Source: Escherichia phage EcWhh-1
Length of the DNA stretch: 64,000 bases
Direction: 5' to 3' (one strand)
Sequence record: MH791409.1
Under the pieces are notes generated by a model that was not told where the DNA came from, made no database searches, and saw only the letters and a list, made by a program, of their open reading frames with translations. The stretch's first letter is position 1. Every line of letters begins with the position of its first letter. The translations under genes were made by a program, and so were the position numbers. This document shows, one piece after another, positions 20,904-56,557 of this stretch.

Positions 20904-21598
20904 TTCAGGAAACCTCGGACGTAGTCAAAATCACGTTCAAACACGTGTGCACTTACCATGGTGTGGGAATATGTACCTAAACCGACACCACACTGTTCAG
21001 CAATAAATGCCATCAGTTTACCCTGCAGATAGAAATCCAGCTGCATAACAACGGCGCAGTTTTGTGAACGCATATGAGTGTGTGCATACAGACGTCCATC
21101 ACGAATATAATATGTTACCGAATCGGTACACGGATATTCTAGGGATTCGTCAGAATCAAGGAGGGCTTGGTCTTGTTCTTGGAGAATTTGGAACACAACT
21201 CGTCTCGAGTTAGGCTTTTCTTTAAGCTCTTTAAGTAGGGCTGGGAGTTGGGCCACAATTCGAGGGCCATAGAAAGTGTTGAAGTTTGCAGGCAATACGT
21301 CACTTTTCGGCTTATCAATGAACTTAGCAACATTAGGGTATTCCTTAAATGCTTCGGCAGCGTCAGTACCACCAGAAATCATAAATTTCCAAAAGGATTC
21401 GGCATATTCATAACTAATACGATTGATACGTGGGTCGGTGAATTTATAGGTGCTTGCATCCAGTACTTCTACCGAAGCAGAACCAATTTCATAACAACGT
21501 CCGATACGAGAATCAACTGCAAACTGTGGAGCTTCCAGGATTTCTTCGTTCATTTGTTTAAATGCATTTTCAAAACTAACAGCGGTAATGTGTTTCAT
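20900..21598 (-). CDS. 42: thymidylate-synthase-family deoxypyrimidylate hydroxymethylase (divergent gp42)
   Basis: 232 aa. Conserved blocks: KPNSRR, YPCTDSVTYYIRDGRL, HMRSQN, SAHVF. Lies at the T4 gene 42 position, but is much more diverged from T4 gp42 than its neighbours are from their T4 counterparts. Confidence 0.7.
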   Translation of the reverse strand: MKHITAVSFENAFKQMNEEILEAPQFAVDSRIGRCYEIGSASVEVLDASTYKFTDPRINRISYEYAESFWKFMISGGTDAAEAFKEYPNVAKFIDKPKSDVLPANFNTFYGPRIVAQLPALLKELKEKPNSRRVVFQILQEQDQALLDSDESLEYPCTDSVTYYIRDGRLYAHTHMRSQNCAVVMQLDFYLQGKLMAFIAEQCGVGLGTYSHTMVSAHVFERDFDYVRGFLK

Positions 21599-55229: not shown

Positions 55230-55518
55230 ATTTCTTCCAGTCAGAAATCATATAAATCTCTTGGTCATATGTCAAGAGACTACGAGTTATAATACCCTTA
55301 CAAGGCCCTGAGATGAACTCGAGGGTGAAGTAAGGAACCTGTTTCATTAATCGGATGCTCGGGGCATGACATCTAAAACGAGAGCCCTTAAAGGGCCCTG
55401 TCATGAATACATATTCTAATGGATAGAAATAAGCATACTCGAAATTTTTAGTAAGGTCCTCTCTTCGAACCTTACGTGAGAAATAACAGAACTCAAAAAG
55501 TTCTTCATCAGTCATCAT
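55222..55518 (-). CDS. hypothetical protein, 98 aa
   Basis: Start moved to ATG 55518 (ATGA overlap with the upstream stop, AGGA SD). Confidence 0.5.
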   Translation of the reverse strand: MMTDEELFEFCYFSRKVRREDLTKNFEYAYFYPLEYVFMTGPFKGSRFRCHAPSIRLMKQVPYFTLEFISGPCKGIITRSLLTYDQEIYMISDWKKYV

Positions 55519-56042
55519 TGCATTCCTATCACAAAGAACAGAGGCAAAGGCTTGTCGCCTTGACACATAAATTTATTAATCATTACCTGGTAAGCTTCAT
55601 AGAACTTATCCATCGCCGGAAGGCGCATCGGCTCTTCGATAATAATCAATAATCGAGTAACAGATAGTCCACGATACTTATGGAAATTGTCTTCATCAAG
55701 GAAACTGCGCACAGTATCATAGACAACAAAACCAGGACCTTCGACTTGGAGATGTGGTTGTGCCTTAGAAACCTGTTTTATTACATTACAAATTTCCCGC
55801 GAGCGATGCGAAGAACTTGACATAACAATCACATCATTACCTTTGGAAACCCAATCAGCTGCGAACTGAGCAAGGGCACTTGTTTTACCTGTTTGGCGTC
55901 CGCCGTCAAGTCGAAGAGTACCAAACTCTTGCATTCTTGAAGCTGGTTCATACCAGGTGTATTGGTCTGAGTCTAAACGTTCAATGGCGCGTTCAGCGAA
56001 GGCGTGCATTAAGGTTAGATAAATGGGAGTTAAAAATTTCAT
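55515..56042 (-). CDS. small P-loop NTPase, 175 aa
   Basis: Walker A GGRQTGKTSA, Walker B-like LLIIIEEP. Confidence 0.55.
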   Translation of the reverse strand: MKFLTPIYLTLMHAFAERAIERLDSDQYTWYEPASRMQEFGTLRLDGGRQTGKTSALAQFAADWVSKGNDVIVMSSSSHRSREICNVIKQVSKAQPHLQVEGPGFVVYDTVRSFLDEDNFHKYRGLSVTRLLIIIEEPMRLPAMDKFYEAYQVMINKFMCQGDKPLPLFFVIGMQ

Positions 56043-56203
56043 AGTAGTCTCTTAGCGGTGGGGCCGTTCCTTGGCACATTAAGTCGTCCATGTATCCGTA
56101 TGTAAACCCTTTACCGCACTTGGGCTCGACCTTATTACAGGTAGGGAAAGGCCCATCACTCAGAGGACGCAACGTTCATGAGGAGAGGGTCGGCTTGCCT
56201 TTA

Positions 56204-56503
56204 TTAGAAAGAACCAGAACCTTTAATTGTGTTCTGACGACCTTTATTTTCTAATTCAGAGTGGTCGATTTCATATGCTTGTGCTACGCCAAAGGCCTTT
56301 TTAACTTTAGCTAAAGAACCTTTAGATGTAACAATATTAAAAGTATTACCTTTGGTAAAATCAACCAAATCGACTTGTACACCCTGTTTACCAAGGCTTG
56401 CTACAATAGCGTCAACATATTCTTGGTCTAAAGTGCCTTGGACTCCAATTTGAAATGCTTTAGGGGCTTTGGCTTCTGTAATAAATTCTTGATAAGTTTT
56501 CAT
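56204..56503 (-). CDS. head internal protein with capsid-targeting sequence
   Basis: 99 aa. N-terminus MKTYQEFITE|A equals the T4 IP capsid-targeting and gp21-cleavage consensus. The remainder is unlike T4 IPII/IPIII. Confidence 0.7.
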   Translation of the reverse strand: MKTYQEFITEAKAPKAFQIGVQGTLDQEYVDAIVASLGKQGVQVDLVDFTKGNTFNIVTSKGSLAKVKKAFGVAQAYEIDHSELENKGRQNTIKGSGSF

Positions 56504-56527: not shown

Positions 56528-56557
56528 ATTCTATCACGGATTTAATTAAGCGTAAAT
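56528..56557 (-). promoter_or_regulatory. early-type promoter (inside denV 3' end)
   Basis: ATTTAC (56557-56552), 18 nt, TAGAAT (56533-56528). Confidence 0.4.

What the first reader, a model, noticed from the sequence alone, without database searches (positions are those of the whole stretch)
56043..56203. GC-rich, ORF-free 161-nt spacer with long-range complementarity: candidate structured RNA
Intergenic gaps elsewhere in the window are AT-rich promoter/terminator cassettes. This one is visibly GC-rich (cggtggggccgttccttggcac...gggaaaggccc...gaggagagggtcggcttgcc), lacks the standard promoter cassette and has no ORF with an SD.

GGGCCGTTCC (56061-56070) can pair with GGAAAGGCCC (56145-56154), 9 of 10 positions, enclosing 74 nt. 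GCGGT (56055-56059) can pair with ACCGC (56113-56117) in a crossing, pseudoknot-like arrangement. I could not fold it into a tRNA cloverleaf.
Basis: seen in the sequence. Interest (0 to 1): 0.5.

Follow-up and report, generated by a model that had tools for sequence, protein, structure and literature searches.

The report
Conserved structured phage RNA, tRNA-associated
The GC-rich gap is a non-coding, folded RNA element kept in over a thousand phage genomes (T4 included); other phage families place its 45-base core beside their tRNA genes, no RNA catalogue lists it, and its function is unknown.

Summary
The spacer is real. It is 52% GC (top 0.1% of the window), has no conserved ORF, and lies on the minus strand between an internal-head-protein-like gene and vs.8 of a JS10/QL01-like T4-type phage.

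The fold is no more stable than shuffles. The 10-bp helix pairs in 69% of cells across 34 homologues, against 65% when shuffled. The pseudoknot has no support.

The conclusion "structured RNA" is nevertheless right, for other reasons:
- The spacer matches 1021 phage records, including T4, whose RefSeq annotates it as the start of vs.8.
- A ~45-nt core recurs in Straboviridae, Vequintavirinae, Schitoviridae and several other phage groups. It has helix P1 with a one-base bulge, an invariant hairpin ACCU-GURNNA-AGGU, and an invariant strand CGAGCC…GCGGUAA.
- P1 and a 5' helix (Pa) show compensatory changes (covariation 0.45 vs 0.10, and 0.28 vs 0.11).
- G·U pairs place the RNA on the gene strand.

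Outside T4-likes the core sits in or beside tRNA clusters. In some phages a promoter or terminator bounds it. It matches no Rfam family, tRNA or T4 rnaC/rnaD.

Best reading: an undescribed phage RNA family, probably a stable factor-binding or processing RNA. Function is untested.

The parts
56043..56203 (-). Whole intergenic element. It runs from the base after the stop codon of the 99-aa internal-head-protein-like gene to the base before the vs.8 ATG.
   Evidence: ORF map and JS10 annotation. The 161-nt query matches 1021 phage records, 341 of them over at least 80% of its length.
56198..56202 (-). Helix Pa, 5' strand (AAAGG)
   Evidence: RNAalifold pairs it with 56147-56151. Pair sets seen: AAAGG:CCUUU, GGGAA:UUCCC (T4), GGGAG:CUCCC (WG01), AAAGC:GCUU and AAAGA:UCUUU. 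The helix is 94% paired and all 5 pairs change on both sides.
56147..56151 (-). Helix Pa, 3' strand (CCUUU).
56159..56182 (-). 5' domain inside Pa: helix Pb (CUCA/UGAG) enclosing the small hairpin Pc (GAACGUUGCGUCC, 56165-56177)
   Evidence: Pb is 98% paired. In T4-type variants the equivalent hairpin covaries: CCUCAU/AUGAGG, CCUCAC/GUGAGG and CCUCA/UGAGG (sequences). Pc is read from the alignment only.
56101..56151 (-). Core motif as matched by the covariance model (P1 + P2 + junction strand, with short flanks)
   Evidence: Model R1 scores 71.7 bits, E 1.6e-21. It is the only strong hit in the 64-kb window. The pattern search finds 1 match against 0.00 expected.
56143..56145 (-). Helix P1, 5' strand (CCU)
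   Evidence: Pairs with A56110, G56108 and G56107. All three pairs are standard in 52 of 52 distinct sequences, with 5, 5 and 2 pair types. Covariation is 0.454 vs 0.103 shuffled and at most 0.108 when the partner is slid.
56107..56110 (-). Helix P1, 3' strand (A-G-G-G), with G56109 bulged
   Evidence: The bulged register pairs 52/52. The unbulged register pairs 36/52 and 38/52. The bulged base is G in 47, A in 4 and U in 1.
56129..56142 (-). Hairpin P2 (ACCU GUAAUA AGGU). The loop consensus is G-U-R-N-N-A.
   Evidence: Invariant in 44/44 sequences of the core alignment, so that alignment gives no covariation. A later hit, L043, has GCCA GUGAAA UGGU, so the loop-closing U-A becomes A-U. RNAalifold predicts P2.
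56111..56128 (-). Junction strand J (CGAGCCCAAGUGCGGUAA): near-invariant ends around 4-5 variable bases
   Evidence: Variants are listed. RNAalifold proposes a 2-bp mini-helix within it (G-C and C-G), which is invariant and therefore unproven.
56076..56106 (-). Variable linker of the T4-like version. It holds a conserved AUGGAC (56086-56091).
   Evidence: Length and sequence vary. A 33-nt insertion occurs in L015 and L024, and an extra hairpin in the Cronobacter-phage-like variant.
56063..56075 (-). 3' hairpin GCCA AGGAA CGGC (T4-like phages only)
   Evidence: 85% paired over 34 homologues. No pair changes on both sides, so it is plausible but unproven.
56040..56053 (-). Context: the vs.8 ribosome-binding region (AAGAGA) and its ATG start (56040-56042)
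   Evidence: Predicted accessibility of this region is the same with the native or a shuffled element (0.54 vs 0.56, 20 phages).
56528..56556 (-). Context: nearest promoter-like site (TTTACG-17-TAGAAT), upstream of the 99-aa gene. It would place the element inside a polycistronic transcript.
   Evidence: Consensus scan only.

Best explanation
The spacer encodes, on the minus strand, one member of an undescribed family of phage structured RNAs.

Shown:
- The sequence is non-coding.
- It is conserved in 1021 phage records.
- It folds into a 5' domain closed by helix Pa, followed by a compact core: helix P1 with a one-base bulge, stacked directly on an invariant 4-bp hairpin with a G-U-R-N-N-A loop, the two bridged by an invariant 16-18-nt strand CGAGCC…GCGGUAA.
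- The same core occurs in at least five unrelated phage groups.

Inferred:
- Here it is transcribed from the promoter-like site upstream of the 99-aa gene, as part of an mRNA that continues into vs.8.
- The invariant junction strand and loop form a recognition surface for a conserved partner, a host or phage protein or RNA.
- Like the tRNAs it accompanies in other phages, the RNA is cut out of the precursor and persists as a small stable RNA that acts in trans.

I put about 0.9 on "conserved structured RNA family" and about 0.4 on "excised, stable, factor-binding RNA". The partner and the biological effect are unknown.
For: Conservation:
- 1021 phage records match the spacer, including T4 in its denV-vs.8 region.
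- The core is also in Vequintavirus, Schitoviridae (Pylasvirus KpCHEMY26), 46-kb phages, phage Ivi and uncultured contigs.
- It is absent from the E. coli genomes searched. Across 185,579 reference bacterial genomes the pattern gave only three hits, all in MAGs of non-enteric phyla, which I did not inspect and take to be chance.

Structure:
- P1 pairs in 52/52 sequences with 5, 5 and 2 pair types.
- Core covariation is 0.454 vs 0.103 shuffled, and at most 0.108 when partners are slid.
- The whole T4-like model is 95% paired, with covariation 0.282 vs 0.109.
- L043 was found only after the model was fixed. It has compensatory changes in both P1 and P2.
- G·U pairs fix the strand.

Non-coding:
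- No frame is open in all homologues, and lengths mod 3 split 13/13/8.
- The T4 in-frame extension of vs.8 is open only in T4 itself.

Independent-RNA context:
- The core lies on the same strand within 45-820 nt of tRNA genes in 10 of 13 non-T4 lineages. In L043 and L273 it lies between two tRNAs.
- An intrinsic terminator follows it in L036 and L277.
- Two sigma70-like promoters bound the unit in Vequintavirus-like L281 and L007.
- In T4-like phages of Klebsiella it precedes a different gene.
Against: - No expression or RNA-end data were available, so stability and excision are pure inference.
- In T4-like phages, including this window, no tRNA is nearby. The element always abuts an ORF start, which also fits a cis role.
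- RNAalifold alone does not predict P1.
- P2, the junction strand and the 3' hairpin are almost invariant, so their pairing is unproven.
- No partner is identified. No protein gene is shared between lineages near the motif except terminase genes.
Confidence: 0.5

Rival explanations
1. Cis-regulatory leader of vs.8. The element switches between two folds, Pa versus the reader's long helix, which share CCUUU. It would thereby control translation or stability of the downstream vs.8 message, perhaps on binding a protein or small ligand.
For: - In nearly all T4-like phages the element ends 10-25 nt before the vs.8 start.
- The two mutually exclusive helices both keep a UUCC/GGAA core across variants.
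Against: - Predicted accessibility of the vs.8 ribosome-binding region is the same with the native element as with a shuffled one (0.54 vs 0.56 over 20 phages).
- The long helix shows no real compensation. When CCUUU changes, the 5' partner compensates and the 3' partner does not.
- In other families a promoter, terminator or tRNA follows the core, not an ORF.
- In T4-like phages of Klebsiella it precedes an internal-head-protein gene.
Confidence: 0.17
2. RNA-processing element: a new self-cleaving ribozyme, or a recognition site for a host endonuclease. It would punctuate polycistronic or tRNA precursor transcripts.
For: - It lies inside tRNA precursor regions in many phages, 45 nt after a tRNA 3' end in L277 and between two tRNAs in L043 and L273.
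- A small junction with invariant unpaired bases is typical of catalytic cores (my own knowledge).
- In 46-kb phages it is one unit in an array of structured units separated by long repeat-built hairpins.
Against: No Rfam ribozyme family matches, even at E up to 10. No cleavage site can be inferred from sequence. Nothing was tested experimentally.
Confidence: 0.15
3. Processive antitermination site (nut- or put-like). It would make RNA polymerase resistant to termination across untranslated tRNA clusters or delayed-early genes.
For: - P2 resembles a boxB-type hairpin: a short stem with a GNRA-like loop carrying extra bases (my own knowledge of lambda boxB).
- The element often lies upstream of long untranslated tRNA arrays.
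- The repeats in the 46-kb phage arrays contain UGCUCUUU, which is boxA-like (the boxA consensus is from memory).
Against: - The window and T4 versions contain no boxA-like sequence.
- In several phages the element lies downstream of the tRNAs and directly before a terminator, with nothing co-oriented to read into.
- In Vequintavirus a strong promoter follows it.
Confidence: 0.06
4. Not an RNA at all. It would be a decayed gene or the true N-terminus of Vs.8 (as annotated in T4), or a DNA-level recombination module that shuffles internal-head-protein genes.
For: - T4 RefSeq annotates vs.8 (219 aa) across the element.
- Internal-head-protein-like genes are inserted on either side of it in different T4-like phages.
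Against: - The extension frame is open only in T4. It is closed or out of frame in 7 relatives, and the distance from the motif to the ATG varies from 92 to 103 nt.
- Indels are not multiples of three.
- Compensatory changes that include G·U pairs point to RNA pairing on one strand.
- The core is shared with unrelated phage families that lack vs.8 and these head-protein genes.
Confidence: 0.03

Closest known systems
T4 species 1 and species 2 RNAs (rnaC, rnaD)
   Same: They are small stable phage RNAs of 119-139 nt, encoded with the tRNA genes and of still unknown function (annotation; PMC9697503). This is the same genomic habit as the present motif in non-T4 phages.
   Different: No homology. 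The covariance model finds nothing in the T4 rnaC/rnaD/tRNA region, and the sequences differ. In T4 and in this window the element lies about 6 kb or more from any tRNA.
GOLLD and ROOL RNAs
   Same: They are structured RNAs of unknown function encoded by phages and prophages, often near tRNA islands (bioRxiv 10.1101/2024.12.08.627333).
   Different: They are 500-800+ nt, multi-pseudoknotted and cage-forming. This core is about 45 nt and the whole element 150-170 nt. The Rfam 15 scan of the window gave no match to any family. The hosts here are enterobacterial virulent phages.
tRNA-spacer-derived small RNAs (for example 3'ETS-leuZ of E. coli)
   Same: An RNA released from a tRNA precursor by the tRNA-processing nucleases then acts in trans. 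The concept is from my own knowledge; the reference is listed in PMC10884466. It fits L277, where the order is tRNA-Ser, motif, terminator.
   Different: Those act by base pairing and are not highly structured or conserved across families. Here the conserved part is a folded core.
Lambda and P22 boxB (nut) hairpins
   Same: A short stem ending in CCU/AGG, with a GNRA-like loop carrying extra bases (my own knowledge).
   Different: No boxA and no N-like protein were identified. The core has an additional invariant 18-nt strand and a closing helix. Its genomic positions do not fit antitermination in several phages.
CsrB- or TwoAYGGAY-type RNAs that sequester CsrA
   Same: The T4-like 3' part carries AUGGAY and a GGA in a hairpin loop 19 nt apart. 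AYGGAY loop motifs are proposed Csr/Rsm binding sites (bioRxiv 10.64898/2026.09.22.753630).
   Different: There are only two sites, present only in T4-like versions and not part of the shared core. The Rfam scan gave no match to any family. Nothing was tested.

Membership tests
tRNA or tRNA-like gene | Cloverleaf detectable by ARAGORN or the Rfam tRNA model | tested here: not met
   ARAGORN finds 0 genes in the whole window. There is no tRNA-clan hit in 55950-56300 even at E up to 10, while neighbouring true tRNAs in other loci score normally.
Any Rfam 15 family (riboswitches, ribozymes, GOLLD, ROOL, phage cis-elements) | Covariance-model match at or near the gathering score | tested here: not met
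   0 matches at gathering score in the window. At E up to 10 there is only a 15-bit chance hit outside the spacer. The Vequintavirus homologue gives none at E up to 1.
T4 rnaC/rnaD stable RNAs | Sequence and structure homology to rnaC or rnaD | tested here: not met
   Model R1 has no hit in L296, the T4 region 69.5-74.5 kb that contains rnaC, rnaD and 8 tRNAs.
T4 rnaC/rnaD stable RNAs | Location within the tRNA gene cluster | tested here: not met
   Not met in this window or in T4-like loci. Met in 10 of 13 non-T4 lineages.
Protein-coding sequence (N-terminal extension of Vs.8, or a decayed gene) | A reading frame conserved among homologues, with indels in multiples of three | tested here: not met
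   The best frame is open in only 14 of 34 sequences, and lengths mod 3 split 13/13/8. The extension is open only in T4.
Intrinsic terminator or promoter cassette | GC-rich hairpin followed by a U-run, or -35/-10 hexamers | tested here: not met
   No such site lies inside 56043-56203.
Riboswitch or cis-acting translational operator | Constant position in the 5' leader of the regulated gene class | tested here: not met
   It lies upstream of vs.8 only in T4-like phages. Elsewhere a promoter, terminator or tRNA follows it. In T4-like phages of Klebsiella another gene follows.
Riboswitch or cis-acting translational operator | The structure occludes the ribosome-binding site | tested here: not met
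   Unpaired probability of the vs.8 ribosome-binding region is 0.54 with the native element and 0.56 with a shuffled one. This is a thermodynamic prediction only.
Riboswitch or cis-acting translational operator | Specific ligand or protein binding | not testable with these tools
   Requires in-line probing or binding assays.
Self-cleaving ribozyme | Site-specific self-scission | not testable with these tools
   All that can be said is that no known class matches.
nut-type antitermination site | boxA plus a boxB hairpin, with a cognate N-like protein | tested here: inconclusive
   A boxB-like hairpin is present by inspection. No boxA-like sequence occurs in the window or T4 versions. No N-like protein was searched for.
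CsrA-sequestering RNA | Multiple GGA motifs exposed in hairpin loops | tested here: inconclusive
   Two GGA sites occur in T4-like versions only, one in the loop of a hairpin that is 85% paired. They are absent from the shared core.

The most novel reading that the evidence does not exclude
A previously unrecognised RNA shared by virulent phages of several families, and present in T4 itself under a mis-annotated ORF. It would work together with the phage tRNA set, either as a decoy or inhibitor of a host factor that attacks or processes tRNAs, or as a new small catalytic or processing RNA. Its invariant 18-nt junction strand and hexaloop would be the active or recognition site.
Probability: 0.2. 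Interest if true: 0.85.

Novelty: new variant of a known kind. Interest (0 to 1): 0.68.

Why it matters
T4 is the best-studied lytic phage. A 2022 T4 transcriptome study discusses rnaC and rnaD as the phage's small RNAs, still of unknown function (PMC9697503). A 2024 review states that the roles of non-coding RNAs in lytic phages remain largely unknown (PMC10884466).

An RNA motif conserved almost base for base across T4-like, rV5-like and N4-like phages and several other groups implies a shared, strongly constrained interaction. The likely target is something common to their hosts or to tRNA metabolism. It offers a small, genetically tractable handle: T4 mutants, with compensatory P1 and Pa mutations.

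It also corrects the T4 reference annotation of vs.8. And it adds a small counterpart to the large tRNA-island RNAs GOLLD and ROOL, whose functions are equally open.

Tried and rejected
The 10-bp helix and the pseudoknot were counted on 34 homologues and not supported.
- **Single-sequence folding.** Uninformative, with z about 0.
- **Metagenome scan.** The pattern AAGGTCGAGCCN{3,7}GCGGNNAA was too loose.
- **Reference bacterial genomes.** Only three hits, in MAGs of non-enteric phyla, not inspected and taken as chance. E. coli genomes gave none.
- **Literature.** Searches by sequence string and by topic found nothing on this element. The catalogue of about 10,000 viral candidate RNAs (PMC10690425) could not be checked, because no supplement is held.
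- **UG27 reverse-transcriptase RNA arrays** (bioRxiv 10.64898/2026.09.22.753630). Different motifs and hosts; not related.
- **Vs.8 as a clue.** Only a family of unknown function (phrog_1488) and a sub-threshold P-loop NTPase hit, with no match to a solved structure.
- **Shared neighbouring proteins across lineages.** Only terminase subunits.
- **All-against-all column covariation on the T4-like alignment.** Dominated by clade structure; no further consecutive helix emerged.
- **A J-strand helix (GYGCG with YGYGC) proposed by RNAalifold.** No pair changes on both sides, and it is broken in one variant.
- **By-eye ideas dropped.**
  - Anticodon-loop mimic of tRNA-Tyr or tRNA-His: the U that would be U33 is A in L043.
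  - 11-nt GNRA receptor: its AA is not conserved.
  - Resemblance to the 16S 3' end or 5S rRNA: 10 bases or fewer, and no BLAST match to E. coli.
  - Type I-E CRISPR-repeat likeness of the Vequintavirus flanking repeat: not conserved.

Full report
**Context**

The window is a T4-type phage of the JS10/QL01 group (Dhakavirus). A 1.5-kb query around the spacer is 96% identical to QL01 over its full length. Genes here run on the minus strand.

The spacer 56043-56203 lies between a 99-aa gene (56204-56503; PHROG "internal head protein") and vs.8 (55515-56042; 175 aa, unknown function). denV lies just upstream.

The nearest promoter-like site is upstream of the 99-aa gene. Neither a promoter nor a terminator lies inside the spacer. 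The spacer should therefore be transcribed as the middle of a polycistronic RNA. This is an inference.

**Checking the observation**

- The spacer is 52.2% GC against 39.3% for the window. Only 0.11% of 161-nt windows reach that.
- The complementarity is not beyond chance. Both strands fold no better than dinucleotide shuffles, with z of +0.16 and +0.25.
- On an alignment of 34 T4-like homologues, the 10-bp helix is paired in 69% of cells against 65.5% after shuffling. Two positions are almost never paired.
- The crossing GCGGU/ACCGC helix is indistinguishable from its shuffle control.

**Conservation**

- The 161 nt match 1021 phage records, 341 of them over at least 80% of the length, mostly in unannotated DNA.
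- In T4 the match lies between denV and vs.8.
- A 40-nt piece is 92% identical in Vequintavirus, a different family.
- Pattern scans of IMG/VR and BLAST recovered the same core in many other phages:
  - 46-kb phages;
  - the N4-like Klebsiella phage KpCHEMY26 (Schitoviridae);
  - phage Ivi;
  - contigs of 38-148 kb from uncultured phages.
- It is absent from 5,426 E. coli genomes.
- Across the reference genomes of 185,579 bacterial species the pattern gave three hits, all in MAGs of non-enteric phyla. I did not inspect them and take them to be chance.
I did not check this.

**Not coding**

- Across the 34 homologues no frame on either strand is open in all. The best is open in 14.
- Element lengths fall 13/13/8 into the three residue classes mod 3.
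- T4 RefSeq annotates vs.8 as 219 aa running through the element.
- That in-frame extension is open only in T4. In seven related loci it is closed by a stop or has no start codon.
- The distance from the motif to the vs.8 ATG varies from 92 to 103 nt.

**Structure**

RNAalifold on the T4-like alignment found helix Pa:
- AAAGG, just after the upstream stop codon, pairs with CCUUU.
- Pair sets are AAAGG:CCUUU, GGGAA:UUCCC (T4), GGGAG:CUCCC (WG01), AAAGC:GCUU and AAAGA:UCUUU.

From the sequences I proposed helix P1:
- The base before ACCUG pairs with the base after GGUAA.
- The next 3' base is bulged.
- Two or three further pairs follow.

In 52 distinct cores the first three pairs are standard in 52/52, with 5, 5 and 2 pair types. 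The unbulged register gives 36/52 and 38/52.

The formal count on 44 equal-length sequences gives:
- 95.7% of cells paired, against 76.4% shuffled;
- covariation 0.454, against 0.103 shuffled;
- at most 0.108 when partners are slid by 1-3 columns.

The combined T4-like model (Pa, Pb, P1, P2 and the 3' hairpin) is 95% paired, with covariation 0.282 vs 0.109.

A covariance model built from the core finds a single strong hit in the window: 56151-56101 on the minus strand, 71.7 bits. It also recovered L043, which was not used to define the model. L043 carries compensatory changes in P1 (C-G to A-U) and in the otherwise invariant P2 (U-A to A-U). G·U pairs in P1 assign the RNA to the gene strand.

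Caveats:
- RNAalifold alone predicts P2 and a 2-bp mini-helix in the junction strand, but not P1.
- P2, the junction strand and the 3' hairpin are nearly invariant, so their pairing is unproven.
An alternative conformer cannot be excluded.

**Context in other phages**

- In 10 of 13 non-T4 lineages the core lies on the same strand as tRNA genes and 45-820 nt from them.
- L043 and L273 have it between two tRNAs.
- In L277 it lies 45 nt after tRNA-Ser and just before an intrinsic terminator. L036 also has a terminator after it.
- In Vequintavirus-like L281 and L007 the unit of about 170-250 nt lies between two sigma70-like promoters.
- In 46-kb phages it is one unit of a non-coding array upstream of the tRNAs.
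- T4-like loci, by contrast, have no tRNA within several kb.
- No protein gene is shared near the motif across lineages except terminase subunits.

**Comparison with known families**

- ARAGORN and Rfam 15 find nothing.
- The T4 rnaC/rnaD region has no hit to the model.
- A T4 transcriptome study discusses rnaC and rnaD as the phage's small RNAs (PMC9697503).
- A review notes that ncRNA roles in lytic phages are largely unknown (PMC10884466).
- The nearest "kind" is the set of function-unknown phage RNAs kept near tRNA islands: rnaC and rnaD, and GOLLD and ROOL (bioRxiv 10.1101/2024.12.08.627333). There is no homology to any of them.

**Mechanism**

Shown: a conserved, non-coding, folded RNA with an invariant junction strand and loop.

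Inferred, at about 0.4: it is released and persists like the neighbouring tRNAs, and binds a conserved partner in trans.

A cis role on vs.8 is less likely. The predicted accessibility of the vs.8 ribosome-binding region is unchanged by shuffling the element (0.54 vs 0.56), and the core is not followed by an ORF in other families.

A ribozyme or processing role, or an antitermination role, remains possible and is untested. Everything about function needs the experiments listed under next steps.

Noticed in passing
L295 1754-2413 (T4 NC_000866 64253-64912); equivalent to window 56043-56203: T4 RefSeq annotates vs.8 as 219 aa, starting at an ATG inside the conserved RNA element. The 44-codon extension is open only in T4 and is closed or out of frame in 7 related phages. 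The true start is probably the downstream ATG, as annotated in JS10 (175 aa).
   Followed up: yes
L030 4700-6100 (minus strand); also L033, L040, L046, L032, L265 and L297 2862-3864: 46-kb phages and the N4-like Klebsiella phage KpCHEMY26 carry a ~1-kb non-coding array next to their tRNA cluster. Structured units are separated by long hairpins built from repeats (…CACAACAGGUAAGAGCAYU / AGUGCUCUUUCCGUUGUG…). One unit is the motif and a neighbour holds a degenerate paralogue of its hairpin. The nature of the array is unknown.
   Followed up: partly
L041 8960-9230; L039 5091-5252: Cronobacter-phage-like T4-type contigs carry two tandem copies of the element upstream of vs.8. The second has a shorter junction strand (CAGCCCGCGGCGGUAA) and still scores 30-44 bits with the model.
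   Followed up: partly
L043 950-1030: A tRNA-like sequence that ARAGORN does not call lies between tRNA-Met and the motif. It has a 7-bp acceptor stem (GGACUGC/GCAGUCC), a T-arm-like hairpin and a 3' ACCA.
   Followed up: no
L281 50-205; L007 1420-1610: In Vequintavirus-like phages the motif unit is flanked on both sides by a repeated hairpin sequence, CCCYUAGAGGGCUUGAWAGUGC. It lies between two near-consensus sigma70-like promoters. The tiny annotated ORF isim_130 overlaps the upstream promoter-like site and may be spurious.
   Followed up: partly
window 1-64000: ARAGORN finds no tRNA gene anywhere in the 64-kb window. The e and nudE genes lie just upstream of this locus in JS10, and T4 keeps its eight tRNAs and rnaC/rnaD upstream of the e.x genes.
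   Followed up: no
L015 and L024 (alignment A1 columns 147-188): A 33-nt insertion (GGCAAGGAGCCCAAUUCGAUUCUAGGAAGGAAA) sits in the variable linker of the element in two T4-like contigs. It shows that this region tolerates large insertions.
   Followed up: no
window 21565-21598 (+): A weak second hit of the core model (16.5 bits, E 0.022, 32% GC). It is most likely chance.
   Followed up: no
plasmid record CP057073.1 100816-100858: The only 'plasmid' carrying the core is a 137.6-kb E. coli record. Its size suggests an rV5-like phage genome deposited as a plasmid; this was not checked.
   Followed up: no
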